Shown: positions 31,301 to 47,033 of the stretch, piece after piece
Numbering within the stretch: position 1 is the first letter of the stretch
Layout of the letters: the number at the start of each line of letters is the position of its first letter
IMG/VR virus record: IMGVR_UViG_3300048924_000203
Location: 22,232-86,231 of that record
Source of the DNA: a virus
Taxonomy: Duplodnaviria > Heunggongvirae > Uroviricota > Caudoviricetes
DNA length: 64,000 bases
Reading direction: 5' to 3' (one strand)
Made by a program: the position numbers and the translations under genes
Notes under the pieces: model-generated
Seen by the model: the letters and a program-made list of their open reading frames with translations, nothing else
The model's database searches: none
Told to the model about the DNA's origin: nothing

Positions 31301-31326
31301 AGCATGGGCGCGGTCAATGAAATCAA

Positions 31327-32495: not shown

Positions 32496-32512
32496 CGCCT
32501 GAGCACGAAGAA

Positions 32513-32545: not shown

Positions 32546-32702
32546 TGTATCTCGGTCGACAGGCCTCTGTCCTGGCCTTCCGTTACCGAGTAACGGAAGT
32601 TCGTCGCGCCTGCTGCATAGGCTTCCCCACGTGGACAGGACGGGCTACGCCGCGCAGGCTCCGGATTACACCGAAAAACATGCGTTGAACTGCATAAACA
32701 TC

Positions 32703-32785
32703 TTGATTAGCACATCTAATTGTCATAGGATGAAGGAGTAAGCAAGCGGAACTGAGTCCGCGAGCCTGACGGAATGGAGTCCGAA
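32703..32785 (+). promoter_or_regulatory. Promoter-plus-leader repeat, copy 5: TTGATT, 17-nt spacer, TAGGAT
   Basis: Leader nearly identical to copy 2. Confidence 0.55.
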
Positions 32786-33106: not shown

Positions 33107-33402
33107 GCGACCTGAGCAACGTCACCATCGACGGCGTTCCCCAGACCTGGCGGCAGCTCTACGAACGCGAGCACGCGGCCTGTATGCGACTGGAGGACTA
33201 CCGGCGAATGCTCACCGACCTGTCGCGTAACGAGCATGGCCGACATGAGGGCGATATCGACGGCGCGAGCCCATCGCAGGGAAACCCACATCTCAGGACC
33301 GGGGACGTGATCGGCTACGCGATCGGCGGGGCATTCAAGTACGTCGTGCCCGCCCCGGAGCTGCGCGGCGACATCGCGGCGTGGAAGGTGCGGAACCAGT
33401 GA
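33103..33402 (+). CDS. hypothetical protein
   Basis: ATGA-overlap start. Confidence 0.45.
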   Translation: MSDLSNVTIDGVPQTWRQLYEREHAACMRLEDYRRMLTDLSRNEHGRHEGDIDGASPSQGNPHLRTGDVIGYAIGGAFKYVVPAPELRGDIAAWKVRNQ

Positions 33403-33506
33403 CCGCGCCGCCTCGCCGCCGGTTCCGTGACACGCTGTGGCCGCCGGCCATCGTGCTGGTCGTCCTGTGGGCGTTGATCGGCCTCTTGATCTGGTGGCTG
33501 CTATGA
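33399..33506 (+). CDS. small membrane protein (35 aa)
   Basis: GTGA start; hydrophobic. Confidence 0.3.
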   Translation: MTAPPRRRFRDTLWPPAIVLVVLWALIGLLIWWLL

Positions 33507-33790
33507 CCGGCATCGACCGGCAGTCCGCCTACGCGCTCCGGGCCGCCGAGGGCTTTCTCGCCTCGATGAACTACTACGGGCAGGCCTACGTACCCGTGGC
33601 TGCCGTCGGTGGGCCCGCGACACCGACCTACTACCGGAACATGCTCAGCAGGGCCGTTCACGCGCTCGGCGACTACGCCGCATTGTCCGAAGTATCAGCC
33701 GCGGCCACCGCTCGCGACGGGCACGCGTTCTACGCCTGGAACGTCTACGCCGAAGCTGTGATCGCACGATACGGAGGTACTACCCCATGA
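33503..33790 (+). CDS. hypothetical protein
   Basis: ATGA-overlap start. Confidence 0.45.
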   Translation: MTGIDRQSAYALRAAEGFLASMNYYGQAYVPVAAVGGPATPTYYRNMLSRAVHALGDYAALSEVSAAATARDGHAFYAWNVYAEAVIARYGGTTP

Positions 33791-34059
33791 AGCACGACAT
33801 CGACCACAGCGGCCACCACTGGCCGATCCTCGGCGGTCGTGGCATCCCGTGCGTGCTCGTCGAGGCCGACCAGGAGATGACTGGCGGCTGGGTCGTGACG
33901 GCCGGCGAGAAGTTCCCCGTCACGGTGTTGGTGCGCCCGGTGGGCACGCTGGAGTTGGCTCCCGACACCGCGGCTCTGCTGTCCGGCCTGTTCTCGGCCG
34001 ATTACGTCGACGATCTGCTGCACGCGTTGGAGCAGGCGAGGAGGATCGCGGAGTCATGA
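33787..34059 (+). CDS. hypothetical protein
   Basis: ORF track. Confidence 0.45.
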   Translation: MKHDIDHSGHHWPILGGRGIPCVLVEADQEMTGGWVVTAGEKFPVTVLVRPVGTLELAPDTAALLSGLFSADYVDDLLHALEQARRIAES

Positions 34060-34424
34060 GCGCGACGAGCATCGACGCGACCCTCGATTGGCAGGTGGGC
34101 GACCCGGAAGCGCGCGTATGGCGAGCACGTCAGCCGTATTGGGCTGAACACCGCGATGGTGATGGCGTGTACATCGTCACCCGGACGGAAGCGCGGACGG
34201 TGACCGTCCTCGGCGAGCACCTGGACGATCCGTCGGTGTGGCGCGTGTCCTGGCACGCCCGGTCGAGAGACATGGACGCCGTCGTGATGCCTCTCGACCT
34301 GGCTACGCATACGGACCTGGAACTGGTGAAGGCCGCCGCGGCCGCGCACCACGCGGTCGGAAGGCGCGCGAATGCGTGGGCCCGATATATGCGTGAGAAC
34401 GATCCTCCGGAGGTAACCCGATGA
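34056..34424 (+). CDS. hypothetical protein
   Basis: ATGA-overlap start. Confidence 0.45.
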   Translation: MSATSIDATLDWQVGDPEARVWRARQPYWAEHRDGDGVYIVTRTEARTVTVLGEHLDDPSVWRVSWHARSRDMDAVVMPLDLATHTDLELVKAAAAAHHAVGRRANAWARYMRENDPPEVTR

Positions 34425-34900
34425 GCCATATTCGAGATATCAAACTGGTTGGGCACTGCCCGATCTGCGGCGAGTCCACCCTCTACGCCAAGCCAGGCGG
34501 CCTGATCCACTGCGCCAACGCTGAGTGCGCGAACCGCGTCGCCGTGACTGCGATCCTCGGAGAACACGAGACCGAGCACATCGTCACCCTGAACGACGAC
34601 GCCATGACCTGGGTGTTCAACAAGGAGACCGGATACGACGAGCAGGTAAGCCCCGGCGTGTTCTACGGCAGCTTCACCATCCGCCATCCGCTGCGGGAAC
34701 GCGTCGAGCTGGCTGACCTCGCAGACTGCACGCTGCACCCGCGGCTCTCGCGCAACCATCCCGGCGAGGCCGGAACTTACCGGGTGACGCCGACGAGCCG
34801 GGTCCACAACGCCGACCCAGATCCGGACGATCCGCTGGCCGAGTTGGGCCCGAAGCGCGGCGACACCGTCCACGACTGGACCTGGGAAAGGATCGCGTAG
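34421..34900 (+). CDS. hypothetical protein (zinc-ribbon-like)
   Basis: ORF track; CPICG...CANAEC. Confidence 0.5.
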   Translation: MSHIRDIKLVGHCPICGESTLYAKPGGLIHCANAECANRVAVTAILGEHETEHIVTLNDDAMTWVFNKETGYDEQVSPGVFYGSFTIRHPLRERVELADLADCTLHPRLSRNHPGEAGTYRVTPTSRVHNADPDPDDPLAELGPKRGDTVHDWTWERIA

Positions 34901-35016
34901 TGGACGTTCTTGGCGGGCTCATCGCTGCGGCTTTCGGGCTGTTGCTGTCGGTCGTGCTCACGATGGGCGTCGGCTGGCTACTTGGGATGGCTCTCGATCA
35001 GTGGGCTAACAAGTGA
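34900..35016 (+). CDS. small membrane protein (38 aa)
   Basis: GTG start overlapping TAG; hydrophobic. Confidence 0.3.
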   Translation: MDVLGGLIAAAFGLLLSVVLTMGVGWLLGMALDQWANK

Positions 35017-35312
35017 CCGATGCAACGATGACTCGCAGTGAGCGGCGTGAACGTCAGGACGCCGAGACCAAAGCCTTCCTGGAGACCGCGTACGCGAATC
35101 CTGGCGTGTGGTTCAAAGTGCCGCTCCACCTCGGTGTAGTGCCCATCTCCGCCGTGAATCTCGCGCCTGATGGCAGCCGCGTGGAAATCACCGCGGCCCT
35201 GGACCTGTCGGTGTTCGATTTCTACCGTGAGGGCGGCCTTGGCGAGTATGGCCAGGTCTGGGCGCGCCGCAAGAAGCGGCCATTCGACCTCCCGCCGGAG
35301 GGACGCGACTGA
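35013..35312 (+). CDS. hypothetical protein
   Basis: ORF track. Confidence 0.45.
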   Translation: MTDATMTRSERRERQDAETKAFLETAYANPGVWFKVPLHLGVVPISAVNLAPDGSRVEITAALDLSVFDFYREGGLGEYGQVWARRKKRPFDLPPEGRD

Positions 35313-35422
35313 TGGACACCGTGATCCTCGTGCTGTTGGCGCTCGGCGTGCCGGTTGGCGTGGTCCTGTTGGCGTGGCGGTGGGTTTTCACCTCCGATGA
35401 CGAGGGCAACGACGATGCTTGA
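35312..35422 (+). CDS. small membrane protein (36 aa)
   Basis: TGATG start; hydrophobic. Confidence 0.3.
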   Translation: MDTVILVLLALGVPVGVVLLAWRWVFTSDDEGNDDA

Positions 35423-35786
35423 CCCGGACAACCCGAACCTTTGCCTCGGGCATGGACACGTGTTCCCCCGCCCTGACGGTGCGAAGGCGCGGTGCGGTGG
35501 CCCGGCGTTATGCGCTGACTGTCGCCGTGATCAGGCCAAGGCGGATGCGGGCACCACTCACCGGCTGACGGCACAGCAGATCACCCAGCGCAAGGCGGCG
35601 ATGGAAGCCCATCCCGACGAACCGGCGCGGTGGCGCCCATGGCTCGACGACGCGAGCGACGATCTATTTCCCGAGACCGCTATCCCGCCGCTCGGCACCC
35701 CCGGCAACGACGCCACTGCCGTCACGGTGACCGCCAACATGCGAATCCCGCTGCACACGAACGATCCACCGGAGGTAACCCTGTGA
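35415..35786 (+). CDS. hypothetical protein
   Basis: ATG in ORF 35355..35786. Confidence 0.4.
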   Translation: MLDPDNPNLCLGHGHVFPRPDGAKARCGGPALCADCRRDQAKADAGTTHRLTAQQITQRKAAMEAHPDEPARWRPWLDDASDDLFPETAIPPLGTPGNDATAVTVTANMRIPLHTNDPPEVTL

Positions 35787-36268
35787 GCACCTACGCGGCC
35801 GACACCACTGTCAGCAGCGAGAAGTCGCGTGGCGAGATCGAACGGACGCTCAGCCGATATGGGGCGAAGTCGTTCATGTACGGCTACGACGAAACGCACG
35901 CGATGATCCAGTTCGACACCCAGAACCGCCGGGTGCGGTTCGTACTGCCCATGCCCGACCGGAACGCGGCTGAGTTCGTTATGTCGGGCCACACGCCGCC
36001 GCGGCGACGGACGCCGGCCCAGACCGCCGAGGCGTACGAGAAAGCGGTCCGCCAACGCTGGCGCGCCCTGGCCCTGGTGATCAAGGCGAAGCTGGAGGCC
36101 ATCGAGTCCGGAATCTCCACGTTCGACGTCGAGTTCATGGCTCAGCTGGTGATGCCCGACGGTCGGACCGTCGCTGAGGACGTCGTGCCGAAGATAGTTG
36201 CTGCGTACGAGAACCACCGGATGCCGGCACTACTCCCGGCCTACTCGACGAAGGCGATCGAGGCATGA
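35783..36268 (+). CDS. hypothetical protein
   Basis: GTGA-overlap start. Confidence 0.45.
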   Translation: MSTYAADTTVSSEKSRGEIERTLSRYGAKSFMYGYDETHAMIQFDTQNRRVRFVLPMPDRNAAEFVMSGHTPPRRRTPAQTAEAYEKAVRQRWRALALVIKAKLEAIESGISTFDVEFMAQLVMPDGRTVAEDVVPKIVAAYENHRMPALLPAYSTKAIEA

Positions 36269-36438
36269 GCAACACGACACGCGATGCCCAGGCGCTGAAG
36301 GACCTCAAGGAAGCGCAGCGGCTACTGGTCGCAGTCAAGGGCCAGTTCCTCAACGACCATCCCGCCTACACCCTGCTCACAGTGGCGATCAACGACGCCT
36401 ACGAGGCGGAGCGCGCGATTCAGGGGTGGTGGCCATGA
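36265..36438 (+). CDS. hypothetical small protein
   Basis: ATGA overlaps at both ends. Confidence 0.35.
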   Translation: MSNTTRDAQALKDLKEAQRLLVAVKGQFLNDHPAYTLLTVAINDAYEAERAIQGWWP

Positions 36439-36626
36439 GCCGGATCCGGCCTCACACGTGTGGCGACCCCGGACCGTATGACGCTCACTGCACCGACGAT
36501 CCGGGGCACCGCTACTCGTGCTACGACGGCGGCGATGACGTGTCGTTCAACCGTCGGCAGGACTTCCGCCACGACTGCGATGACCCTTCGTGCGACCGAC
36601 AGCACTTCACCAACGAGGGAGATTGA
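36435..36626 (+). CDS. Cys/Asp-rich hypothetical protein
   Basis: ATGA-overlap start. Confidence 0.4.
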   Translation: MSRIRPHTCGDPGPYDAHCTDDPGHRYSCYDGGDDVSFNRRQDFRHDCDDPSCDRQHFTNEGD

Positions 36627-36628
36627 CC

Positions 36629-36793
36629 ATGGCCGGCTCTTCGCGTGTGCAGTGGCCCCAGAGCGTGTACAACGCCTACGTCCAGTTCGGTCCGCGTCCG
36701 CGGTGGCTGCTGAAGCTCATCGCCCGACCGTTCGTTCGCGTAGTGCCTGACGACGAGATGTTGCCGAAGAAGGTGGCCGCTGATGATCGCTAA
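36629..36793 (+). CDS. hypothetical small protein
   Basis: Ribosome binding site GAGGGAG. Confidence 0.35.
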   Translation: MAGSSRVQWPQSVYNAYVQFGPRPRWLLKLIARPFVRVVPDDEMLPKKVAADDR

Positions 36794-37325
36794 CCTGGCT
36801 GGCCAGTCCGTCCCAGACGATGGGGTGAACCCGCCGCCGGTCCGCATCGTGGAGGACACCGCAATTCATGGTGGTCGTGAGCTCAGGTGCTACGTCGGCA
36901 CCACCACGATCGCGACGGCCACGCTGCTCCCCGCGTCGACAGGCTTCGGCAATGGCCGGTGGTCAGTGCTGCCCCACCCAGCGATGGAGCGGCTCGCCGG
37001 TACGCGGGCGGCCTCGTCGGTGGTGCTCGACGAAGACGACGCCCGCCAGGCACTTGGCTTCCTCGCCGGCCTCTACCTAGCTGGTGCTCCAGACATTCCG
37101 CGTCTGCACGCACTCGGCTCGTACGCATCTAGCCAGGGCGTTGTGTACAGCTTCCCGGCTGGCGCTCTCCCTGAAGGAGTCCGTCATGCTCGTCAGCTAA
37201 TCGGCCAGCAGGTGCTGATCGACGGCCTCCGATTCACGGTCCGTGGTGTCGAACACTGGGCGATCGTCTGCCCGCGTGACGGGGCACGGTGCGAGCATCC
37301 GTTCGGCTTGTTGGTCGAGTCATGA
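36783..37325 (+). CDS. hypothetical protein
   Basis: ORF track. Confidence 0.5.
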   Translation: MIANLAGQSVPDDGVNPPPVRIVEDTAIHGGRELRCYVGTTTIATATLLPASTGFGNGRWSVLPHPAMERLAGTRAASSVVLDEDDARQALGFLAGLYLAGAPDIPRLHALGSYASSQGVVYSFPAGALPEGVRHARQLIGQQVLIDGLRFTVRGVEHWAIVCPRDGARCEHPFGLLVES

Positions 37326-37381
37326 GCACGTACGTGTACCTGGAATACGGCGTGCGCCATCCGGTTGAGGAGGAATCGTGA
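37322..37381 (+). CDS. possible 19-aa bridging micro-ORF
   Basis: ATGA/GTGA overlaps only. Confidence 0.2.
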   Translation: MSTYVYLEYGVRHPVEEES

Positions 37382-37968
37382 GCGGGACGGAGCCACGCAT
37401 GGTGCGCGCTGTTCAGGGCTGGCGGTGGATGCCCGGACATTCGCACGTGCAGCAGTCGTTCATCGTGCGTGCCCCGGAGGCCGAGCTGGAGGCGGAGCTG
37501 GCGCGGCAGTGTGCGGCGACTGCAGCTCTGCCTGGTTTGTTGCCGACGCCGTCGATCATCGAGCTACCGGCAGAGGCTCTGTCCGATGACGCTCCCGCAC
37601 CGTCCCTGGTCGATGTGCTGCTGGCGCACCTGGTCCCGTATGGAGGCCACGGAGTACACGTGACGTGCGAATGTGGCTGGGAGACCGGCACTGACGACCT
37701 CCGGGACTGGTGGGTCAAGCACGCTGAGCACGTCGCCCAGGAGGCGAAAGCAGCCGGCCTGATGGTGCTGCCCGCGCCGCGCTCCGACGTCATGGACCGG
37801 GTGATAGCTGAGGTGGCGAGGATCGACGGCCGCGATGAGCCGTTCTGTGTGGACTGCCACGACCGGGAGGTTGGCGTCGACGCGACGCTTGTCACTGAGT
37901 TGGTCGCCGAGGTCGCGCAGTTGCGGGCCGAGCAGGAGCGTGCGATGGCTGAAGGGGACTGGGCATGA
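37378..37968 (+). CDS. hypothetical protein
   Basis: ORF track. Confidence 0.5.
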   Translation: MSGTEPRMVRAVQGWRWMPGHSHVQQSFIVRAPEAELEAELARQCAATAALPGLLPTPSIIELPAEALSDDAPAPSLVDVLLAHLVPYGGHGVHVTCECGWETGTDDLRDWWVKHAEHVAQEAKAAGLMVLPAPRSDVMDRVIAEVARIDGRDEPFCVDCHDREVGVDATLVTELVAEVAQLRAEQERAMAEGDWA

Positions 37969-38282
37969 GTGAGGGGGCGGACTCGCCGCGTATGCGGGAG
38001 TATGACGATCCTTCGGGCCTGCTGGAGGTCGATACAACTGACGCCAATGAAGTGTCGTTCGGCATGGCTGACCGGTTGGGCGACCAGGCTGGCATGCGGC
38101 TCGGCCGGGACGTGGTCGCTGCCTTGCACGCCCAGCTCGGCGAGTGGCTTCGCGTCGACCCGCCGATTGGCAATGTCCCCTGCCCAACCTGCGGCGAATA
38201 CGACCCATACGACTGCACATGCCCAGATCGGCAACGGTCAGCGGGTCGACACGACCACCGAGCGCAGGAAGGTGGTGAGTGA
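37965..38282 (+). CDS. hypothetical protein
   Basis: ORF track. Confidence 0.45.
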   Translation: MSEGADSPRMREYDDPSGLLEVDTTDANEVSFGMADRLGDQAGMRLGRDVVAALHAQLGEWLRVDPPIGNVPCPTCGEYDPYDCTCPDRQRSAGRHDHRAQEGGE

Positions 38283-38575
38283 TGGTCGAGTGGGCGTGGT
38301 GGTTGGGCCTGACCGTACTGAGCGTGGCGGTGGTGCTGGCGCTGGCGCCCCGTCGCGCGAAGCCTCCAGTTGCTCTCGGCCTGGTCGTCGATCGCTACAG
38401 AGTGGCAATCACGGTGGATGGCCGGCGGGTCGCTGAGACGTCCTGCGCGGTCGGGGATGGCGACCTTGTGCGACTGGTTCCGATCCCAGGCGAGCAGTGC
38501 TGGCGGTACGTCGCGATGGTTGGTGATGCACCGGTACTGGAGTGGGCTGACACAGGCGGGCTGGTGCGGCGATGA
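38279..38575 (+). CDS. membrane-anchored hypothetical protein
   Basis: ORF track; N-terminal membrane helix. Confidence 0.45.
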   Translation: MMVEWAWWLGLTVLSVAVVLALAPRRAKPPVALGLVVDRYRVAITVDGRRVAETSCAVGDGDLVRLVPIPGEQCWRYVAMVGDAPVLEWADTGGLVRR

Positions 38576-38868
38576 GTGCGAACGGCGACGAGGTCTACGC
38601 GCTCGCGTCTGTCCTGGGCCACGAACCGGAATGCTGCACCAAACGAGAAGAGGGCGATGGGGAATGCACGCCAGACTGGCCCGACTGCTCACTGTGGGAG
38701 ACGGCCAGCTTGATTCTGCGGTCGAGCAACCTGAATGAGTTGTTGGCGATGGCGTGGCAGCGTGGATTTGAGGCGTGCCAGCAGCGGACAGCCAACGAGC
38801 TACTGGCTCTGTTGCCGCAGGTACGGGATACGACCAACCCGTTTTCCGGTGAGGAGTTGTCGTCATGA
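38572..38868 (+). CDS. hypothetical protein
   Basis: ORF track. Confidence 0.45.
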   Translation: MSANGDEVYALASVLGHEPECCTKREEGDGECTPDWPDCSLWETASLILRSSNLNELLAMAWQRGFEACQQRTANELLALLPQVRDTTNPFSGEELSS

Positions 38869-39554
38869 CCGAGCTGGTGTGCACCTGCCCAACGAATGAC
38901 CAGGGGGTGCGTGTGTCGATCGATCCGGCGTGCCGTCGGCATCCGGGGCACAAGGGCATCGGGTCGCCGGATTGCTGGTGCCTTCAGGATGGGCTGATCG
39001 GCCGATTGGCGACGGCTATGGATTGCCCGCAGCACGGGCGTCCACGCGGAGCGTCACCGATGCCTCGGTACGCGACTGGCGGGCTGATCAGTCCGCGGCC
39101 GGACGATGGCAGCCTGCTGGTTGATCTGTCGCCGGGATACATGCTGCCGGCGGACTATGCGGCCGCGTTGGGTATCGGGTCGGACTTGATGGCGATGCCG
39201 AACGACCACGGCGGCCCGGGTGCGTCCAAACCGGATATGGATTTCTCCAGCCAGGCCCATGCCGAAGCGGAGGCGCGGTGTCGGGCGGAGTTCGCGGAGC
39301 GTGAGTCGAAGGCCCGCGCGTGGCTGCGTGAGCGAGTGCAGGCCGCGTTGATCGACGAGCTGAAACGGCAGACCGCTGCCTATCCGGGTTTCACGGCACA
39401 GACAACGACGCAGCCGAATCTGTTCGTGGTAGACGGCATCTTGTCGGTGGACGAGTTGGCCAGCGCGACGGTCGACGTGTTCCTGGCGATGCTGTCCGAT
39501 CCGCCGGCGATGGTGACTGATCAGGATGGTGTGACTCGGGTGGAACAGCGCTGA
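38865..39554 (+). CDS. hypothetical protein
   Basis: ORF track. Confidence 0.5.
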   Translation: MTELVCTCPTNDQGVRVSIDPACRRHPGHKGIGSPDCWCLQDGLIGRLATAMDCPQHGRPRGASPMPRYATGGLISPRPDDGSLLVDLSPGYMLPADYAAALGIGSDLMAMPNDHGGPGASKPDMDFSSQAHAEAEARCRAEFAERESKARAWLRERVQAALIDELKRQTAAYPGFTAQTTTQPNLFVVDGILSVDELASATVDVFLAMLSDPPAMVTDQDGVTRVEQR

Positions 39555-39856
39555 TGCCTGGCCGCTCGGTCGCGCTGGCGAAGGGTCCGGCGTTGTCGTT
39601 ACACCGGACGTATGTAGCCGAGTGCGCTGATGGTGCCCGAGCGGAGTTCTTTGATGATCTGGCCGGCGCGAAGGCCTGGATTCGGGTGCACGGCGGGACG
39701 ATCCGGTACGGCAATCACGCCGGCGCTCCCGCACGTTGTGATGAGCCGCATTGGTGCCAGGGCTGCGATGAAGTGGTTCATGGCACGTGGATGGCGTGGC
39801 GTGATGGGTTGTGGCGGTGCGCTGAGTGCCGTGGCGTGTGGAAAGCGGTTGTGTAA
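39554..39856 (+). CDS. Cys-rich hypothetical protein
   Basis: ORF track. Confidence 0.45.
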   Translation: MPGRSVALAKGPALSLHRTYVAECADGARAEFFDDLAGAKAWIRVHGGTIRYGNHAGAPARCDEPHWCQGCDEVVHGTWMAWRDGLWRCAECRGVWKAVV

Positions 39857-40188
39857 TGGACGAATTGGATAATCCGGAGGGCCAGGGGTCATACGGGATG
39901 GTGATGCCGTTCGTGACTGTCGCATCGAAGGGTGGACCGCACGACGACGAGTCGTACGCGGCGGGCTTTGAGATGGGTGGTCTGGACGCGACGTTGAAGG
40001 CCTTGGCCCCGTTCACGGCGTTGGTGCGGATGCCGGTGACGATCCGCAGCGTCAATCGTGAGCAGGCGGATTTGATCGCGATGAAGCACGGGTTCACGAT
40101 CGACGATGTGATGTGGACGGACGAGTCGGGGCCCGATGGCTGGGATGTGATTGTCGTCCGCCGCGATGTGGCCGGGGGAGACGAATGA
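39856..40188 (+). CDS. hypothetical protein
   Basis: ATG overlapping TAA in ORF 39826..40188. Confidence 0.45.
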   Translation: MDELDNPEGQGSYGMVMPFVTVASKGGPHDDESYAAGFEMGGLDATLKALAPFTALVRMPVTIRSVNREQADLIAMKHGFTIDDVMWTDESGPDGWDVIVVRRDVAGGDE

Positions 40189-40832
40189 TGAGCGTTTTCG
40201 ACGATGGTGGCCCTGTGACGGGCGCGGGTCCGATCCCTGCGTCGACGGGTGCGCCGGATGCGCGGTTGACCGACGAGCAGCGCGCGGTGTTGTCCGCTTA
40301 TGCGGAGGCGCTGGGCGCGGATGCTGTCCTTGATCGCGAGTACACCGATGAGCAATTGGAGAGCAGCCCGTACGCCGAGATGATGTCCGAAGCTGTACCC
40401 GTTGGTCAGGACGAATACCGCGGCCGACCTGCCGACGGCGGTCCGTCTTCGTTCTCTGCTGGTGGTGTGGTTGTCGGCGGCGTTCGAGTTTCGTACTTGA
40501 GCGGACAGCCGGATGTGCATCTCGCTGAGTCCCAGAGGCAAGCGTTGGTGGGCGAGGCCCAGGAGCAGCTCGACGAGCCGGTCCTGGCGTGCCCGACGTG
40601 CTGGCGCAGTCACGGCTGTGACCTCCCCGCCGGCCATCCTGGCGACGACTACAGCCATGTGTGCGATCCGTGCCCGGATGGCTGTTCAGAGCCGGACCTT
40701 GAAGACTGGCCAGATGGTTGGTCGGCATCGGTGGGCCGCTGTTCGGTGCATTGCGGTGATCATCCGATCAGTGGCGACCGGCTGTTCGACGTGACGCGCG
40801 CGGGTTCGACGAACGAGCGTGTGCTGCCGTGA
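40185..40832 (+). CDS. Cys-rich hypothetical protein
   Basis: ATGATG start. Confidence 0.45.
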   Translation: MMSVFDDGGPVTGAGPIPASTGAPDARLTDEQRAVLSAYAEALGADAVLDREYTDEQLESSPYAEMMSEAVPVGQDEYRGRPADGGPSSFSAGGVVVGGVRVSYLSGQPDVHLAESQRQALVGEAQEQLDEPVLACPTCWRSHGCDLPAGHPGDDYSHVCDPCPDGCSEPDLEDWPDGWSASVGRCSVHCGDHPISGDRLFDVTRAGSTNERVLP

Positions 40833-41089
40833 CGGCGCGGGACGATCTGGCTGAGCGTGTGCGGACGGGTGTGCTGTCTCCGGAGCAGGCTGCTGCGGTG
40901 CGTGCGTCGCTGGAGGCTTCGGGCGCGAGGATGCGGGCGGCTGCGCAGGCGTTCGCTGAGGCAGCGCGGCCGGGGCTGGTGGAGTTCGAGCAGCGGGTGA
41001 ATGACCTGATGGAGGCGGCGCGGCGGTCGCTGCAGGGCCAGAGTGAACCGATTCCGATCCCCTGGGGTGTTGTGCCGGTTACGGTTTGA
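40829..41089 (+). CDS. hypothetical protein
   Basis: ORF track. Confidence 0.4.
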   Translation: MTARDDLAERVRTGVLSPEQAAAVRASLEASGARMRAAAQAFAEAARPGLVEFEQRVNDLMEAARRSLQGQSEPIPIPWGVVPVTV

Positions 41090-41705
41090 CGGTGTCGTCA
41101 GATCGGCGGCCGGGGTGAATCGGGGAGGTTGGGCATGGCCGAGATTGCGGAGGCGACGGACGCGGCGCGTGAGGCGTTGTTGAGGAGGATCGCGAATCTT
41201 GCGCCGCAGTTGAGTGCTGCTGCGGGTGTGCGGGATTTGGCGCAGGCGTTTGCGTTGACGGTTGGTGCGATGCCGGGTCGGTTGCCGGGTGCGTTGGGTG
41301 AGGTGAAGGTCTCGAATTAGGGCGCTGCTGCCGCTGCTGCGGGCTTGTCGGGTCGGTGGTGGTGATGTCGTCGGCGAGGAGCCAGAGCTGCATCGTCACG
41401 GTGGATTTGTCGTTGCCGCTGCGGGCCTCCAACTCCACTACGGCCAACCATGTTCCGTCGTCGCGTAGCAGCCAGGCTGATTGGTGCGCGGGCATCCAGG
41501 GTTCGAGGTGGAGGCCTCCGGCTTTGGCCCACATGGGGATCTGGTCGCGGCGCAGTGGGCCGCGCGGGAATGCTCGGGCGGTGTTGATCCAGACGGGTCT
41601 GTCGACGTGATGGAGGGTGCGGTAGCCGAGCAACTCGCGAGCCCAGTTGTCGAACATGTGTGCGAGTCTGTCAGGTCTGCGCTGGGTTGACCAGGCCAGG
41701 GCCAA
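41079..41705 (-). CDS. reverse-strand hypothetical protein; C-terminal 90 aa are low-complexity and overlap 41129..41320
   Basis: Long reverse-strand ORF with a plausible globular N-terminal 115 aa. Confidence 0.4.
   Translation of the reverse strand: MALAWSTQRRPDRLAHMFDNWARELLGYRTLHHVDRPVWINTARAFPRGPLRRDQIPMWAKAGGLHLEPWMPAHQSAWLLRDDGTWLAVVELEARSGNDKSTVTMQLWLLADDITTTDPTSPQQRQQRPNSRPSPHPTHPATDPASHQPSTQTPAPNPAHPQQHSTAAQDSRSSSTTPHAPRPSPPQSRPCPTSPIHPGRRSDDTVKP
41129..41320 (+). CDS. hypothetical protein; overlaps a reverse-strand ORF
   Basis: Ribosome binding site GGGGAGG; T/G-ending codons with many TTG. Confidence 0.3.
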   Translation: MGMAEIAEATDAAREALLRRIANLAPQLSAAAGVRDLAQAFALTVGAMPGRLPGALGEVKVSN

Positions 41706-41765
41706 TGAAAACCGGCCCTTACCCCTCGGTGGATGGAATCCGTTGAGGGGCAGCGGGGCCGGTGT

Positions 41766-42089
41766 TTATGCGCCTGAGACTACACCCGGATCCAGCGGCG
41801 CCAGCTTGATCGGATCGCCGACCACCGCGCCGGCCTCTTCCCTCGTCGGCCAGAACAGCTCAGGGCTGCCGGTCTCGTCCAAGTACATGATCCAGGTCGT
41901 GCCGTCGTCCCTGGTGCCTTCGATGTATCCGGCGTAGCCACTCTCCGCGGGGACGGGGTAGCGGCCGATCTCGACTCGTTGCATTGGAATGCCCTTCTCG
42001 TGGTGGATGCGGTGGTTGCGCCCCACCTGGGCACGGGATGAACGGTAGCAGCGCCCCGTGACACGAATCTGTCGTCGCAGGTCTTGCAT
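41766..42089 (-). CDS. reverse-strand hypothetical protein
   Basis: ORF track. Confidence 0.45.
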   Translation of the reverse strand: MQDLRRQIRVTGRCYRSSRAQVGRNHRIHHEKGIPMQRVEIGRYPVPAESGYAGYIEGTRDDGTTWIMYLDETGSPELFWPTREEAGAVVGDPIKLAPLDPGVVSGA

Positions 42090-42134
42090 AACCTCACGGG
42101 GTATGGCCTTGGAACCTGGTAGGTGCGTAGCGCG

Positions 42135-43700
42135 ATGACTTCGGAAACCGTCTCGTCTGAATCGTCAGGCAACGCGTCTGATCTGATTGCGACCCTGCTG
42201 CATCGGTCTCCGCGGATCGCGATGGCAGCCGCGTCGGCCCAGTTCGCGTGGCCGCTGGTGAAGCGCGCGCACACGAAGGTCAAGGAGCGCCGCACCTACA
42301 CGGTGAAGGTTCCAGCGACCGACGAAATCTACGACGACCTGCACGAATGGGTGTTGGGTCTGCTGCCCACCGATGAGCAGCGCGCGTTGGTGGCGTGGAC
42401 CTCGAAACGCGACGACCTCGGACCCACCGCCGCGTACCCGGGAAGCAGCGGACCGCCGAAGCCCCCGCGAATTCGCCTGCGGTACGACGGTTCTCGCGAG
42501 CAGATGGTCACCATCGGCGGACACCGCATCAAGGTCGTGATCAACGACGGCGAGGCGTACAAGGACGATGGCCGCTGGAAGCCCGCCGAGCTGATGTTCA
42601 CCATGCACTCGCTCGGCGCCCAACAGGCGCTGCTGCAGGAGATGGCTCAGGTGGCCAAGCGGTCACGCGAAGAGAAGCGCCAGCCCGTGTTCCGGATGCT
42701 CGACAAGTGGGGCGACTGGGCCCGCGTCGACGACCTGCCGGTCCGCGACCTGGACAGCGTCATCCTGGCGGACGGACAGCTCGACAGGCTGGTGGCCGAC
42801 GTCGCCGATTTCCTTGAGCGCGAAGGGGAGTACGCGCGCCGCTGCATCCCGTGGCACCGCGGACATCTCTACGAGGGGCCACCGGGGACCGGGAAGACGT
42901 CGGTGGCCCGTGCAATCGCCAGCCACTTCACGATGGACGTTTGGTACCTGCCGCTGGCTGACATCACGAAGGACTGCAACCTGCTGAACGCGATCAGCCG
43001 GATCACGCCGCGCTCGATGCTGCTGCTCGAAGACGTCGACGTGTTCCACGCAGCCACCCAGCGTGACGAGAACGCCGGCGTCACGCTGTCCGGGCTGCTG
43101 AACGCTCTGGATGGCATCGCCACGCCGCACGGTCTGCTCACGGTGCTGACCACGAACACGCCGGAGGTCCTGGACAAGGCGGTGGTTCGACCTGGCCGCG
43201 TGGACCTGGTCGAGCACTTCGGGTTCGCCACCGCTGATCAGGTCGCACGGTTGTTGAGCCGCTGGTACGACTGCCCTGTCCATCCGGCTGCGGTCAGCCC
43301 GATGGACAGTGTTCCGCCGGCTCAGATCGTGGAGGTGTGCAAGCGCAGCGCCACCATCGATGATGCGTGGCGCGAACTCGACAAGCTCAAGGCGAACAGC
43401 ACCAGCGTGATTACTCCGCCCATTGCCGTGGGATTCCGGACCGTAGGAGAACCGGCACAGGACCGTGAATCCTACCGGCAGCTGAGCTTCACATTCCACA
43501 GCAGCCGCCCGTCGGAGTTCCGCGTTCAGCTGTCGGTCGACGGTGTCGAGGCAGAGTCTGATCCGCTTCCCTACGACGCCGACAATGACGCTGCGAACGA
43601 TGCACGGTTACAGGCGATATCCCGTTGGGAAGAGAAAACGGGTCGCGTGTTGCCAGCAGACGCGAGAGCGTGGCTGCCGATCGAGATGGTGGCGTTCTGA
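42135..43700 (+). CDS. AAA+ ATPase of BCS1-like type
   Basis: Walker A GPPGTGKTS; Walker B LLLEDVD; sensor TTN; Arg finger PGRVDL; SGLLNALDGIA block matches the BCS1 signature. Confidence 0.8.
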   Translation: MTSETVSSESSGNASDLIATLLHRSPRIAMAAASAQFAWPLVKRAHTKVKERRTYTVKVPATDEIYDDLHEWVLGLLPTDEQRALVAWTSKRDDLGPTAAYPGSSGPPKPPRIRLRYDGSREQMVTIGGHRIKVVINDGEAYKDDGRWKPAELMFTMHSLGAQQALLQEMAQVAKRSREEKRQPVFRMLDKWGDWARVDDLPVRDLDSVILADGQLDRLVADVADFLEREGEYARRCIPWHRGHLYEGPPGTGKTSVARAIASHFTMDVWYLPLADITKDCNLLNAISRITPRSMLLLEDVDVFHAATQRDENAGVTLSGLLNALDGIATPHGLLTVLTTNTPEVLDKAVVRPGRVDLVEHFGFATADQVARLLSRWYDCPVHPAAVSPMDSVPPAQIVEVCKRSATIDDAWRELDKLKANSTSVITPPIAVGFRTVGEPAQDRESYRQLSFTFHSSRPSEFRVQLSVDGVEAESDPLPYDADNDAANDARLQAISRWEEKTGRVLPADARAWLPIEMVAF

Positions 43701-43752
43701 TGGCCCGCACGGCGCCGCTGCTCGACCCAGGCATCGCATCGCAGGTCGACTG

Positions 43753-43998
43753 ATGCCCAGGCGCGAGTTGCACACGTACGAGTACGTCTGCGACGGCTAC
43801 CTGCGGCACGACGGCAAGAAATGCACCAGCCGCAAGGTGGTCTCGGCCTATGACGCCAACGCCGCCGACGCGGCGATAACCGAGCCAACGCTGGATTCGG
43901 CCGAGTTGCTCGTCACTGGCCGTTGGGGATGGGCGTTCACGCGGCATGGTTGGTTGTGCCACCTCCCACACCGCGACGATCCGCGAGTACGCGACTGA
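43753..43998 (+). CDS. hypothetical protein
   Basis: TGATG start. Confidence 0.4.
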   Translation: MPRRELHTYEYVCDGYLRHDGKKCTSRKVVSAYDANAADAAITEPTLDSAELLVTGRWGWAFTRHGWLCHLPHRDDPRVRD

Positions 43999-44285
43999 TG
44001 GCCGTCGGGACGCTCGTCCTGCGGCGCCACACAGATGGCGACGACGTCTGGCTGACGGTCGAGACCGCTGACCCGGAGATCCACGTCAATGACGCCATCC
44101 TGGAGGACATCGAGCGATGCCGAGACACGGGCTACATCCCCGGATGCCGACTCATCCGCACTGCCGGCGAGACGGGTTACCGAGGGGCGCTGCTTCACCT
44201 CGACGCGCGTGATCGGCACGTGGTGTACCGCGTCTCTGAATTTGACGAGGCCACTGGGTACTGGATCGCGAGGTGGCCCGACTGA
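43998..44285 (+). CDS. hypothetical protein
   Basis: TGATG start. Confidence 0.4.
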   Translation: MAVGTLVLRRHTDGDDVWLTVETADPEIHVNDAILEDIERCRDTGYIPGCRLIRTAGETGYRGALLHLDARDRHVVYRVSEFDEATGYWIARWPD

Positions 44286-44563
44286 TGAGGTTGCGATTCG
44301 CGTTGTGGATGATGGCTCGCTGCTACCGATTAGTCGAGCTAATTGATCGGCGTGCGGTGCCGAAGTGTTCTCCGTGGGCATTCACGTTCGAAGAGGGCCG
44401 CGGCGCGGTGATCAACAACTCCGGGTCGTCGTTGAACGCCCGCCGTGGCGCTGCGCTCTGGTACACGAACGATCTGGACTATGAGCGAGCATGGTCCGAC
44501 TCGACCACATTCGCCGGCCGCGACGCATTGGCCGAGTTCATGGCTCGGCACGGGATCACGTGA
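44285..44563 (+). CDS. hypothetical protein
   Basis: TGATG start. Confidence 0.4.
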   Translation: MRLRFALWMMARCYRLVELIDRRAVPKCSPWAFTFEEGRGAVINNSGSSLNARRGAALWYTNDLDYERAWSDSTTFAGRDALAEFMARHGIT

Positions 44564-44603
44564 GCGGCATGGGGGCGCACCCTCCGCTCATAACGTCCAG
44601 TCC

Positions 44604-45008
44604 ATGAGCCTTGGACACGTACTCCTGATTCTGTCGATCTACGTGCTGACGGTGGCGAGCGTGACTCGCCTCGTGAACTACGACGTGATCTTCGACCCGA
44701 TCCGCCTGTGGCCGGCCCGCCGCGCCTCGGTCGCCCACGCCGCCGCGAAGGAGGCTGAAGCCAACGGCATGGCCATCGAGCACTCCGCGGCGATGAAGCG
44801 CTACGCCCGCTGGGTCCTGGTGTGCGACTTCATGGCCTGCCCGTGGTGCGTGTCCACGTGGGTCGCCGCCGCCACCGCGCCCGCCGTGATCCTGCTGACC
44901 GGCTGGTCCTGGTGGACCCTCCCGCCGCTCGCGCTCTCCGCCCGCTACCTGGTCGGATTCTGCGACCGCTGGGTAGCGGAGGACCTCACAATCGTCGACA
45001 AGGGCTAA
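44604..45008 (+). CDS. DUF1360-like integral membrane protein
   Basis: Three hydrophobic helices; LVNYDVIFDPIR motif. Confidence 0.5.
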   Translation: MSLGHVLLILSIYVLTVASVTRLVNYDVIFDPIRLWPARRASVAHAAAKEAEANGMAIEHSAAMKRYARWVLVCDFMACPWCVSTWVAAATAPAVILLTGWSWWTLPPLALSARYLVGFCDRWVAEDLTIVDKG

Positions 45009-45017
45009 ACACCCAGC

Positions 45018-47033
45018 TTGGCTACCGTCCGTCTCGTGACGGCCACCAATCTCCGCGTCGTTCGGCGCCCACGCACCCCGCTCGTCGCCGCACTCACGGC
45101 CGCCTCCGCGCCGGTCACGGACCCCACGAAAATCTTCACCGCCACCACAGGCCGCCACAACGCATGGCAGGACGACGCATGGCGCTACACGAAGTGCATC
45201 CCAGAACTCGGCTACTTCGTCCGCTGGCGCTCCAACGCCTGCGCACAGGTCCGCCTCGTCGCATCCGCCATCGACCCCGACACCGGGCTGCCCACCGGCT
45301 CGATCGACGAGAAGGACACTCAGGGCAAGGAGTTCGTCGAGCTGGTCAAGCAGATCGCCGGCGGGCCGCTTGGCCAGAAGCGGCTGATCAAGCGCGCCGC
45401 CACCTGCCTCACCGTCCCCGGCGAACTGTCCATCTGCATCCTGCAGACCGACGACGGCGAGAAGTGGTACGCGATCTCGAAGAAGCAGATCAAGCCGTCC
45501 CAGCAGAAGTCCGACTCGGTCGCGATCAAGCTGCCCGACGGCACCCTCCACGAGTTCGACAAGGGCAAAGACGCGATGTTCCGCGTCTGGAACGAGGACG
45601 CCGAGGACCCCTCCGAAGCTGACTCACCCGTCCGCGCCTGCCTCGACGCGCTCGGCGAGATCGAGCGCGCCACGAAGAAGATCAAGAACGCCGACCGCTC
45701 CCAGCTGCTGAACAACGGCCTGCTCATGGTCCCGTCGGAAGCATCCCTCCCGGACAACCAGGCACCGACCGCCGCAAGGCAGGAAGGCACTCCCACAGCG
45801 GCACAGTCCAAGCGGGTCGCCCAGTCCCTGCAGCGCATGATCGTCCAGGCCGCAGAAGCCTCCGTACGCGACGAGAACAGCGTCGCCGCGGTACTCCCGA
45901 TGGTCGCCGCCGCACCGGGCGAGCACCTCGGCAAGGTCGTCCACATCGAGTTCTCGAAAGAGGCACAGAAGTCCGCTGTCGAGATCCGCGACAGCGCCAT
46001 CGCCCGCACCGCAACAGGCCTGGACATCACCAAGGAACGCCTCCTCGGCATGGGCGAGAACTCCAACCACTGGACCGCCTACCTGCTGGCCGACGAAGAC
46101 GTGAAGCTGCACGTCAACCCGCCCATGGAAGTGCTCTGCCAGGCCATGTACGAGCACACCTTGTCGAACATGCTCGACGCGAAGGGCATCGACTCGTCCA
46201 AGTACACGCTGTGGTTCGACGCCTCGAACCTCACCAAGGACCCGGACCTCACCGACGAGTTCAAGGACGCGTACCAGTCGGGCACCGTCACCAGCACCTC
46301 GTTCGTCGACGGACTCGGCCTCCCCGAACGCGCCCTCTACGACTTCACCACCGAAGAAGGCAAGGCCCAGTGGGCACGCGACCGCGTCTCCGCCGACCCC
46401 AACCTGCTGCCAATTCTGGGGCAGATGATCCCCGAATTCGCAGGCTACGACTTCGGCACCCCACAACCAGCAGCACCGGGCCAGCCCGTCGACGACTACG
46501 GCAACCCCATCGACACCGGACAGGCATACGACCAGTCCACAGACACGAGCACCGACACGGCGACCACCAACCAGCAGACCAACGGACCTGCCGACGTGCA
46601 AGAACCGCAGACCGAAACCAACGACCCCACCACACCCACGTACAGCGTGGAATCACTGGCACGCGCCCGAGCAGAGACCGTCGCCCTCACAGTCGAAGAA
46701 CTCCTCGCCAACCGCGCACTCGAACTGGCCGCCAAGCGACGAATCCACACCAGCGACCGCGCACTCCACGCACGCCTCCGCCACGTCCCCGCACACGAAC
46801 GAAACCGCCACCTACCACCAGTCACACCAGCCGAAGTCCAACGCCTCATCAGGGGATGGGACGACATCCTCACCCCAGAGTTCGCGACCGCCAGCGGCCT
46901 GAACTACAACCGGCTCCACGCCGCTGTCTCCGCCCGGGTGATCGCTGAGCTCACGGCCGGCCAGGTGAACGCCCACGCCACGAACGGGCCGACGGCCACC
47001 TCATCCACCCCGACGAGCCTTGGAGTGTCCTGA
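45018..47033 (+). CDS. portal protein
   Basis: Size, position, acidic C-terminal tail; typical actinophage portal. Confidence 0.8.
   Translation: MATVRLVTATNLRVVRRPRTPLVAALTAASAPVTDPTKIFTATTGRHNAWQDDAWRYTKCIPELGYFVRWRSNACAQVRLVASAIDPDTGLPTGSIDEKDTQGKEFVELVKQIAGGPLGQKRLIKRAATCLTVPGELSICILQTDDGEKWYAISKKQIKPSQQKSDSVAIKLPDGTLHEFDKGKDAMFRVWNEDAEDPSEADSPVRACLDALGEIERATKKIKNADRSQLLNNGLLMVPSEASLPDNQAPTAARQEGTPTAAQSKRVAQSLQRMIVQAAEASVRDENSVAAVLPMVAAAPGEHLGKVVHIEFSKEAQKSAVEIRDSAIARTATGLDITKERLLGMGENSNHWTAYLLADEDVKLHVNPPMEVLCQAMYEHTLSNMLDAKGIDSSKYTLWFDASNLTKDPDLTDEFKDAYQSGTVTSTSFVDGLGLPERALYDFTTEEGKAQWARDRVSADPNLLPILGQMIPEFAGYDFGTPQPAAPGQPVDDYGNPIDTGQAYDQSTDTSTDTATTNQQTNGPADVQEPQTETNDPTTPTYSVESLARARAETVALTVEELLANRALELAAKRRIHTSDRALHARLRHVPAHERNRHLPPVTPAEVQRLIRGWDDILTPEFATASGLNYNRLHAAVSARVIAELTAGQVNAHATNGPTATSSTPTSLGVS

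What the first reader, a model, noticed from the sequence alone, without database searches (positions are those of the whole stretch)
41079..45008. Accessory island between the small-ORF block and portal: reverse-strand genes plus a BCS1-type AAA+ ATPase
This is the only stretch where coding switches strand: two reverse-strand ORFs at 41079-42089. It is followed by a 521-aa AAA+ ATPase with a long N-terminal domain and an AAA module that matches the mitochondrial BCS1 signature (SGLLNALDGIA, PGRVDL). Three unknown ORFs of about 90 aa and a DUF1360 membrane protein come next. BCS1-like ATPases are protein translocases or unfoldases; one in a phage beside a membrane protein suggests host manipulation, superinfection exclusion or counter-defence. 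No integrase or repressor is recognisable.
Basis: partly seen in the sequence, partly recalled or inferred. Interest (0 to 1): 0.7.

Follow-up and report, generated by a model that had tools for sequence, protein, structure and literature searches.

The report
Phage accessory genes with Bcs1-like ATPase
This stretch is the right-hand end of a 13-kb block of optional genes inserted between the terminase and portal genes of a mycobacteriophage-like virus, and its largest gene is a soluble Bcs1/YjoB-type AAA+ ATPase of a kind already noted in phages, so it is real but fairly ordinary.

Summary

- **ATPase (42135-43700):** it is a Bcs1-clade AAA+ ATPase. It passes Pfam BCS1_N and AAA, has an 'ED' Walker B, and its model matches Bcs1 structures full-length (E 5e-24).
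- **No membrane anchor:** neither it nor any of 50 relatives has a transmembrane helix, so it resembles the soluble chaperone YjoB, not a membrane translocase.
- **Length:** its 521 aa come from an in-frame fusion of a ~425-aa ATPase to a ~96-aa domain that is a separate gene elsewhere.
- **Reverse-strand genes:** both are real, but shorter than stated (72 aa and a ~105-aa domain). One has lost its stop codon. They are not the only reverse-strand coding in the window.
- **DUF1360:** this is a core partner of the portal (31 of 32 relatives), not part of the island.
- **Extent of the island:** it runs about 31.3-44.6 kb. The terminase-portal gap is 14.3 kb here, against 1.0-2.7 kb in most relatives.
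- **Distribution:** among portal relatives only one metagenomic contig carries the ATPase and the reverse genes. Across 22 ATPase loci no neighbour is conserved.
- **Defence:** no defence family matches specifically.

Phage Bcs1 orthologs were already described in 2021. Verdict: a new member of a known kind, of modest interest.

The parts
31300..44600 (+). Whole accessory block between the terminase module (TerL plus an HTH protein) and the DUF1360-portal pair. The finding covers only its right-hand quarter.
   Evidence: Homologs of Jeon gp1-gp3 lie at 28452-31297 and of gp5-gp6 at 44604-46988. In Jeon a single gene, gp4 (345 bp), separates them. The TerL-to-portal gap is 14.3 kb here, against 1.0-2.7 kb in 26 of 27 measurable relatives.
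41135..41320 (+). Possible 61-aa plus-strand ORF that overlaps the read-through tail of the reverse gene.
   Evidence: GGGGAGG lies 7-13 nt upstream of the ATG, and third-position GC is 0.90 in the first 20 codons. No homolog was found among the loci fetched up to that point. Uncertain.
41079..41657 (-). Reverse-strand gene 2. The conserved ~105-aa domain (41343-41657) is a predicted SH3/Tudor-like beta-barrel. It is followed by ~90 aa of P/S/T/Q-rich read-through because the stop codon was lost.
41766..41984 (-). Reverse-strand gene 1: a 72-aa protein of unknown function.
   Evidence: phrog_7834, E 1.5e-19. 88% identical to the 72-aa gene of L008. Homologs in 78 phage records, all annotated as hypothetical.
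42100..42122 (+). Remnant (MALEPG, then a stop) of a 149-aa ORF that precedes the ATPase in L008 and has been deleted here.
   Evidence: The sequence ATGGCCTTGGAACCTGGTAG matches the first six codons of the L008 ORF. Nucleotide alignment with L008 skips about 414 bp at this point.
42135..42773 (+). ATPase N-terminal region (residues 1-213): a long conserved N-terminal helix followed by the Bcs1-specific domain. No transmembrane segment.
   Evidence: Pfam BCS1_N covers residues 39-213, 30.7 bits against a cut-off of 28.1. Foldseek aligns 400-436 columns with full-length Bcs1. Best 19-residue hydropathy is 0.89 here and at most 1.37 in 50 relatives, against 2.1-2.2 for the membrane-protein controls.
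42774..43406 (+). ATPase AAA module with its lid (residues ~214-424). All catalytic motifs are intact.
   Evidence: Walker A at 248, Walker B of the 'ED' type at 295, sensor-1 TTN at 339, RPGRVD at 352. PDB sequence search gives Bcs1 at E 1.3e-33, with the next family at 1e-18.
43407..43700 (+). Fused C-terminal domain (~96 aa, three strands plus a helix), derived from a small gene that is independent elsewhere. GTG 43407 is probably its original start codon.
   Evidence: Close relatives end 'KLKVGR*'. Nucleotide homology to L008 stops at 43392, and the junction sequences are shown. The stand-alone 100-aa protein P0138 is 56% identical, E 3.5e-22, and is its own gene in L041. Model pLDDT is 71-85 with no alignment coverage.
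43753..43998 (+). Small ORF, 81 aa, function unknown.
   Evidence: Third-position GC signal is in this frame from 43740 to 43920. No homolog was found among the fetched loci or in PHROGs.
43998..44285 (+). Small ORF, 95 aa, function unknown. Its ATG overlaps the previous stop codon (TGATG).
   Evidence: Homologs in Mycobacterium phages Sparky and Farewell, 43% identity, E 2e-17.
44285..44563 (+). Small ORF, 92 aa, function unknown. Start and stop are coupled in the same way.
   Evidence: phrog_10449, E 3.8e-24. Homologs in 28 Mycobacterium phages (PLot, PBI1, Gumball and others), located in their right arms.
44604..45008 (+). DUF1360 membrane protein. It is a core partner of the portal gene, not part of the accessory block.
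   Evidence: Pfam DUF1360 and phrog_781. 46-48% identical to Jeon gp5 and Dori gp6. Present next to the portal in 31 of 32 relatives.
45018..47033 (+). Portal protein (context; right-hand boundary of the block).
   Evidence: phrog_776, E 1.7e-212. 59% identical to the Jeon portal.
29180..30766 (+). Large terminase subunit (context). It shows that the Bcs1-like ATPase is not the packaging motor.
   Evidence: 77% identical to Jeon gp2 over residues 7-529.

Best explanation
The region is the right-hand end of a mosaic block of optional, non-structural genes. In this lineage of Jeon-like (Northamptonvirus-like) actinophages the block has accumulated in the gap between the terminase module and the DUF1360-portal pair.

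Its largest gene encodes a cytoplasmic Bcs1/YjoB-clade AAA+ ATPase. By analogy with Bcs1 and YjoB (inferred, not shown), the protein most likely assembles into a six- or seven-membered ring. Its N-terminal domains would form a chamber above the ATPase ring, and ATP hydrolysis would be used to hold, remodel or release a folded protein client during lytic growth. It would not thread unfolded chains and would not move cargo across a membrane.

In this phage a recombination event at the 3' end of the gene removed the stop codon. That fused the ATPase in frame to a small ~96-aa domain, which might act as an extra client- or partner-binding module or might be inert.

The two reverse-strand genes are independent moron-type insertions of unknown function. 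One belongs to a family otherwise found at the ends of mycobacterial prophages. The client of the ATPase is unknown.
For: SHOWN
- Family assignment by sequence, motifs and fold.
- The 'ED' Walker B is shared with Bcs1 and YjoB (PMC9565160).
- There is no aromatic-hydrophobic-Gly pore loop between Walker A and Walker B (sequence printed).
- No transmembrane segment in any of 50 family members.
- Soluble YjoB is the next-best structural match after Bcs1. YjoB is a hexameric chamber chaperone (PMC9565160).
- The fusion is documented at nucleotide level, and its partner is a stand-alone gene elsewhere.
- Accessory status and the gap expansion.
- No conserved neighbour in 22 loci.
- The gene lies among early or non-structural genes in a Mycobacterium marinum prophage, in Rhodococcus phage NiceHouse and in Caulobacter phage CcrColossus.
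- The reverse-gene family lies at prophage ends or next to an integrase.

INFERRED: ring assembly, use of a chamber, a folded-protein client, and lytic-phase expression.
Against: - No client, oligomer or expression data exist.
- The model is of a monomer only.
- The conserved, Ala-rich N-terminal helix followed by a basic stretch resembles a degenerate version of the Bcs1 anchor, so peripheral membrane association cannot be excluded.
- By sequence the protein is closer to Bcs1 than to YjoB, so the YjoB analogy rests on solubility and fold, not on orthology.
- The fusion could be non-functional or recent. It is seen in only two contigs, and these may come from one sample.
Confidence: 0.55

Rival explanations
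1. Membrane-proximal translocase or assembly chaperone. The ATPase would dock at the membrane, perhaps through DUF1360 or the SPFH protein at 31566-32495. It would move or load folded proteins during prohead assembly near the portal, as proposed for jumbo-phage Bcs1 orthologs.
For: - Iyer et al. 2021 (PMC7824862) proposed this role for phage Bcs1 orthologs.
- In this lineage the gene lies about 1.3 kb upstream of the portal, with a membrane protein in between.
- An SPFH/Band-7 protein is in the same block.
- The N-terminal helix is conserved.
Against: - No transmembrane segment in 50 relatives.
- DUF1360 accompanies the portal in 31 of 32 relatives, and 30 of those lack the ATPase at this position.
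- No neighbour, and no portal or terminase, is conserved next to the ATPase across 22 loci.
- In other phages the gene lies among non-structural genes.
Confidence: 0.15
2. Conflict gene. The ATPase, alone or together with the reverse-strand genes, would act in superinfection exclusion, anti-phage defence or counter-defence, for example by dismantling a host immune complex.
For: - Patchy, mosaic distribution and accessory status.
- Weak matches to the defence ATPases TRIP13 and IetA.
- The reverse-strand 105-aa family sits at prophage ends beside polymorphic-toxin and ESX cassettes, or next to an integrase.
Against: - The PADLOC matches cover only 60-130 residues around the P-loop, at E 5e-10 or weaker. 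No HORMA, CD-NTase or IetS partner is present.
- The ATPase is co-oriented with lytic genes and sits in an early lytic operon in a prophage.
- No effector gene is conserved nearby.
- The reverse genes co-occur with the ATPase only in the window and L008.
Confidence: 0.2
3. Decaying cargo. The fused ATPase and the read-through reverse gene would be products of recent, sloppy recombination and no longer functional.
For: - Two genes at mosaic junctions have lost their stop codons.
- The upstream 149-aa ORF has been deleted.
- The fusion is seen in only two contigs.
Against: - All catalytic motifs are intact, and third-position GC is 0.82 over the gene.
- Identity to relatives is 86-90% with no frameshifts.
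- The fused domain keeps a confident predicted fold and is 56% identical to its stand-alone homolog.
Confidence: 0.1

Closest known systems
Mitochondrial Bcs1 (heptameric AAA translocase of the folded Rieske Fe-S protein; PDB 6sh3, 6uko, 8t7u)
   Same: - Best sequence match in the PDB (E 1.3e-33).
- Full-length structural match covering both the Bcs1-specific N-domain and the AAA module (E 5e-24, 418 columns).
- 'ED' Walker B and the SGLLNALDG and RPGRxD motifs.
- No canonical aromatic pore loop.
   Different: - No transmembrane anchor.
- Prokaryotic-virus context, with no Rieske or bc1 link.
- An extra 96-aa C-terminal domain.
- Oligomeric state unknown.
Bacillus subtilis YjoB (soluble hexameric chamber chaperone; PDB 7w42; PMC9565160)
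   Same: - Soluble and prokaryotic.
- Bcs1-like N-domain fold plus an AAA module with an 'ED' Walker B.
- Second-best structural family (E 4e-15).
- NCBI names one close relative from Mycobacterium marinum 'putative ATPase YjoB'.
   Different: - Only 18% identity in the structural alignment.
- YjoB is not among the 60 best PDB sequence matches listed.
- YjoB is described as conserved in Bacilli, with the host clients KatA and GapB. Nothing comparable is known here.
Phage and giant-virus Bcs1-like ATPases (phrog_7485; Microbacterium phages Zooman/Cece, Rhodococcus phage NiceHouse gp183, Caulobacter phage CcrColossus gp235, Tenacibaculum phages, phiKZ gp286; noted by Iyer et al. 2021, PMC7824862)
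   Same: - Same family: phrog_7485, E 5e-54.
- 25-36% identity by tblastn.
- BFVD structural matches at E 1e-27 to 1e-21.
- No experimentally defined function in any of them.
   Different: - Those are mostly in large or jumbo genomes.
- This subfamily (60-90% identical members) is common in metagenomes and mycobacterial prophages.
- It has no relative above 36% identity among 50,697 deposited phage records.
- The C-terminal fusion is specific to this phage.

Membership tests
[quoted passage not shown] | AAA module with Walker A, Walker B, sensor-1 and the second-region-of-homology arginines | tested here: met
   GPPGTGKT at 248, MLLLEDVD at 295, TTN at 339, RPGRVD at 352. Pfam AAA E 1.7e-16.
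[quoted passage not shown] | Walker B with 'ED' instead of 'DE' (the feature that PMC9565160 reports as shared by Bcs1 and YjoB) | tested here: met
   LLLEDVD. E299 and D300 are invariant in the 50-sequence alignment.
[quoted passage not shown] | Bcs1-specific N-terminal (middle) domain | tested here: met
   Pfam BCS1_N 30.7 bits against a cut-off of 28.1, residues 39-213. Foldseek aligns 400-436 columns with full-length Bcs1 chains.
[quoted passage not shown] | N-terminal transmembrane anchor | tested here: not met
   Best 19-residue Kyte-Doolittle mean in the N-terminus is 0.89. Across 50 relatives the maximum is 1.37. The DUF1360 and DUF3307 controls give 2.21 and 2.13.
[quoted passage not shown] | Heptameric ring with two chambers that translocates a folded Fe-S protein | not testable with these tools
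   Only a monomer model was made. WhiB, an Fe-S protein, lies within 6 kb in only 5 of 22 loci.
YjoB-type soluble chamber chaperone | Cytoplasmic, with a Bcs1-like N-domain fold plus an AAA module | tested here: met
   No transmembrane segment. Foldseek match to 7w42 at E 4e-15 over 428 columns.
YjoB-type soluble chamber chaperone | Sequence-level orthology to YjoB (a family described as conserved in Bacilli) | tested here: not met
   18% identity in the structural alignment. YjoB is absent from the 60 best PDB sequence matches listed.
Phage large terminase / packaging ATPase | Terminase ATPase fold and position as the packaging motor | tested here: not met
   The true TerL is at 29180-30751, 77% identical to Jeon gp2. 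The ATPase gets no terminase hit in Pfam or PHROGs.
Known anti-phage defence ATPases (TRIP13/Cap6 of CBASS, IetA of IetAS) | Full-length match to the family model, plus the partner genes (HORMA/CD-NTase, or the IetS protease) | tested here: not met
   PADLOC hits cover 60-130 residues at E 5e-10 to 1e-3. None of nine neighbouring or nearby proteins hits PADLOC. NCBIfam IteA scores 18 bits against a cut-off of 510.
DUF1360 (PF07098) | Match above the Pfam gathering score, and membrane helices | tested here: met
   26.9 bits against a cut-off of 21. phrog_781, E 4.6e-33. Hydropathy 2.21.

The most novel reading that the evidence does not exclude
A soluble phage Bcs1-like ring that has captured a small C-terminal adaptor domain could act as a dedicated remodeller of one folded protein complex. 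The target could be a host immune or proteostasis complex that it takes apart, or a phage protein that it delivers to the assembling prohead. The terminase-portal gap would then be a previously unrecognised hot spot where this lineage collects such conflict or assembly genes.
Probability: 0.1. Interest if true: 0.6.

Novelty: new member of a known kind. Interest (0 to 1): 0.3.

Why it matters
- **Open function:** Bcs1-like ATPases are widespread in phages and giant viruses, yet none has an experimentally known role. A compact subfamily that is soluble, abundant in mycobacterial prophages and metagenomes, and closely related to cultivable Mycobacterium smegmatis phages would be a tractable entry point.
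- **A clean example of mosaicism:** the locus shows how recombination at gene boundaries creates gene fusions. It also shows the normally tight terminase-portal junction expanding from about 1.5 kb to 14 kb.
- **Limits:** none of this overturns current understanding. No evidence ties the genes to defence or to membrane translocation.

Tried and rejected
- **Close phage relatives at DNA level:** megablast of the region against 50,697 phage records found nothing. The distant search matched only short stretches, mainly DUF1360/portal, the 72-aa reverse gene and part of the ATPase.
- **ATPase as terminase replacement:** considered because relatives have TerL just upstream of DUF1360-portal. Rejected once TerL was found at 29180-30751.
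- **Conserved partner gene:** ORFs around 22 ATPase loci were clustered, and nothing is shared beyond close relatives. One ~420-470-aa family is adjacent in 4 loci only.
- **Fe-S client (WhiB) by analogy with Rieske:** WhiB lies within 6 kb in 5 of 22 loci and none was found in the window. Rejected.
- **Defence-system membership:** PADLOC and NCBIfam gave only generic AAA hits.
- **Discrete mobile cassette:** no flanking direct or inverted repeats. No promoter- or terminator-like sites above chance. No Rfam hits.
- **Pfam identity of the fused C-terminal domain:** none. The word-indexed homolog search also found nothing, and only the exhaustive search found relatives. Its matches to giant repeat proteins may be partly compositional.
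- **Literature:** a search combining BCS1 with defence and prophage terms returned nothing relevant.
- **AFDB fold library:** unavailable.
Full report
**What the window is.** The window has about 65% G+C and is almost entirely coded on the plus strand. It has no nucleotide-level relative among 50,697 deposited phage records. Its portal is 59% identical to that of Mycobacterium phage Jeon and its kin (Northamptonvirus) and 49% identical to Dori. tblastn and tblastx against the complete Jeon and Dori genomes give a clear synteny map:
- window 28452-28760 corresponds to Jeon gp1
- 29180-30751 to gp2, the large terminase (77% identity)
- 30797-31297 to gp3
- 39853-40101 to gp4
- 44604-45002 to gp5 (DUF1360)
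- 45018-46988 to gp6, the portal

In Jeon, gp3 and gp5 are separated only by the 345-bp gp4. Here they are about 13.3 kb apart. The finding therefore describes the right-hand quarter of a much larger insertion block.

**Checking the observation.** The genes are real.
- ATPase: the ORF runs from ATG 42135 to the stop at 43700 (521 aa), with third-position GC of 0.82.
- Reverse-strand ORFs: both match PHROG families. They have 89% and 88% identical counterparts in a related metagenomic contig, L008.
- Reverse-gene boundaries: those counterparts show the true genes are shorter. One is 72 aa, starting at 41984. The other starts at 41657 and has a ~105-aa conserved domain.
- Lost stop codon: relatives of the second gene are 102-108 aa. 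In the window its stop has been lost, so the frame runs on for about 90 low-complexity residues to 41079.
- The read-through stretch has a weak coding signal and overlaps a plus-strand ORF with a strong ribosome-binding site.
- Small ORFs: three coupled ORFs of 81, 95 and 92 aa follow the ATPase.
- DUF1360: the protein at 44604-45008 is confirmed.
- Strand switch: the claim that this is the only one is wrong. A 749-aa RING-domain gene lies on the minus strand at 56777-59026.

**The ATPase.** Sequence comparison with solved structures puts Bcs1 far ahead of all other AAA proteins (E 1.3e-33, against 1e-18 for the next family). An AlphaFold model built from a 50-sequence alignment has mean pLDDT 78. 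It matches full-length Bcs1 chains over 400-436 columns at E 5e-24, followed by Bacillus subtilis YjoB at E 4e-15.

The Walker B motif is of the 'ED' type. Kwon et al. report that this feature is shared by Bcs1 and YjoB (PMC9565160). The stretch between Walker A and Walker B has no aromatic-hydrophobic-Gly pore loop. Sensor-1 and the arginine motif are intact.

One defining feature of Bcs1 fails. There is no transmembrane anchor in this protein or in any of 50 relatives. The maximum 19-residue hydropathy is 1.37, against 2.1-2.2 for two membrane proteins in the same window. In that respect the family resembles YjoB, a soluble hexamer whose N-domains form a chamber needed for chaperone activity (PMC9565160).

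**A gene fusion.** Close homologs (60-90% identical) are 420-430 aa and end 'KLKVGR*'. Nucleotide homology to L008 stops at 43392, eleven bases before L008's stop codon. After codon 424 the window reads on in frame.

The added ~96 residues are predicted as a compact three-strand-plus-helix domain at pLDDT 71-85, despite having no alignment coverage. An exhaustive HMMER search found a stand-alone 100-aa protein that is 56% identical nearly end to end (E 3.5e-22), and it is encoded as its own gene.

The GTG at 43407 lines up with that gene's start. The 521-aa protein is therefore an in-frame fusion created at a mosaic junction. On the 5' side, a 149-aa ORF that overlaps the ATPase start in L008 has been deleted, leaving only its first six codons.

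**Is it an island, and is it in relatives?** I fetched 80 loci encoding related portals and scored each gene. 32 loci have portals at least 41% identical.
- DUF1360 sits beside the portal in 31 of them, so it is a core gene.
- The distance from terminase end to portal start is 1.0-2.7 kb in 26 of the 27 loci where it can be measured. It is 6.3 kb in L042, which shares the SPFH and gp4-like genes.
- In L008 the distance is more than 12.6 kb, and in the window it is 14.3 kb.
- The ATPase and both reverse genes occur only in L008.

The ATPase and reverse genes are therefore accessory, and the terminase-portal gap is an insertion hot spot in this sub-lineage. Conversely, 22 loci that carry the ATPase share no neighbour apart from close relatives.
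- In a Mycobacterium marinum prophage the gene lies in the early region, among RecE/RecT, ThyX, methylases and WhiB.
- In Rhodococcus phage NiceHouse and Caulobacter phage CcrColossus it lies among non-structural genes.

**Function.** No defence family matches beyond generic P-loop similarity. No partner, effector or membrane protein is consistently linked to the gene.

The best-supported reading is a soluble, ring-forming, chamber-type AAA+ chaperone or remodeller that acts on a folded protein client during lytic growth. The family, motifs, fold and solubility are shown. Ring assembly, use of a chamber and timing of expression are inferred.

Iyer et al. (PMC7824862) had already noted Bcs1 orthologs in jumbo phages and proposed membrane-proximal translocation of folded proteins into heads. 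The lack of a membrane anchor and of any linkage to structural genes argues against that for this subfamily, but does not exclude peripheral membrane association.

**The reverse-strand genes.**
- The ~105-aa family occurs, among deposited phages, only in Mycobacterium abscessus prophages. Two contexts were inspected: one at a prophage end next to a polymorphic-toxin cassette, and one beside an ESX/lipoprotein cassette about 5 kb from a prophage end.
- In Mycolicibacterium mucogenicum its gene converges on an integrase gene.
- Its model is a small SH3/Tudor-like barrel with no informative match.
- The 72-aa family is widespread in mycobacteriophages, always annotated as hypothetical.

Both look like independently transcribed morons. 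Their function is unknown, and their association with the ATPase is limited to the window and L008.

**Verdict.** The Bcs1 assignment and the accessory status are supported. The link to a membrane protein and the translocase idea are not supported. The defence or exclusion idea has no positive evidence.

BFVD shows that Bcs1-like ATPases are common in phages and giant viruses, and the literature already records them. This is therefore a new member of a known kind, with a lineage-specific fusion as a minor twist.

Noticed in passing
window 56777-59026 (minus strand): A 749-aa reverse-strand gene of the MXAN_6230/SCO0854 RING-domain family (NCBIfam E 2e-67, third-position GC 0.87). It sits inside the structural operon, between the capsid genes and the major tail protein gene. 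Jeon has small forward genes there.
   Followed up: partly
window 30766-45018, compared with L042, L008 and 27 other loci: The terminase-portal gap is graded across relatives: 1.0-2.7 kb in most, 6.3 kb in L042, more than 12.6 kb in L008 and 14.3 kb here. This suggests stepwise accumulation of accessory genes at a junction that is normally tight.
   Followed up: yes
window 31566-32495: An SPFH/Band-7 (stomatin/HflK-like) protein of 309 aa lies immediately after the terminase module (Pfam E 1.9e-19; phrog_200 'lipoprotein'). It is shared with L042 at 75% identity. SPFH proteins partner with AAA proteases in cells, but no link to the ATPase 10 kb away was found.
   Followed up: partly
window ~28400, and the whole window: Jeon's physical left end maps to about window 28400, so the window is permuted relative to Jeon. 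The exact ATPase sequence is on record on a contig of 108,881 bp, while Jeon is 60.9 kb. The window spreads about 34 kb of Jeon-equivalent sequence over 64 kb. The genome may be much larger than its relatives, or the contig may be a concatemer or a prophage with flanks.
   Followed up: no
window 43410-43697; P0139, P0140, P0142: The fused C-terminal domain also gives matches to tandem repeats in very large proteins (9 stretches in a 7602-aa protein, 7 in a 940-aa protein carrying DUF7507 repeats). These proteins are D/A/T-rich, so the matches may be partly compositional.
   Followed up: partly
window 47938-51366; L008 15996-19865: A 1142-aa fusion of MuF-like and capsid maturation protease regions follows the portal. 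The L008 counterpart (1289 aa) carries an intein (PF14890), and an Endonuclease VII gene lies on the reverse strand just upstream of it.
   Followed up: no
window 18022-19459: A tRNA-Gly(tcc) is followed directly by a 450-aa protein with phage DAM-like and GNAT-like domains (PF22555, PF22559). Jeon has the same arrangement (gene 67, the tRNA, then gp68; 78% identity).
   Followed up: partly
window 60432-61817: A 461-aa GDSL-type lipase/acylhydrolase (Pfam E 1.1e-18) lies between the major tail protein and the head-to-tail adaptor genes. It may be a mycolic-acid or lipid esterase placed within the structural operon.
   Followed up: no
window 42100-42122, compared with L008 9555-10004: Only the first six codons remain of a 149-aa ORF that overlaps the ATPase start by 4 nt in L008. 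The M. marinum prophage has an unrelated 169-aa ORF in the same coupled position.
   Followed up: yes
window 27197-28303: A 368-aa DUF932 protein (Pfam E 4.3e-54) lies just upstream of the terminase module, near the point that corresponds to Jeon's genome end.
   Followed up: no
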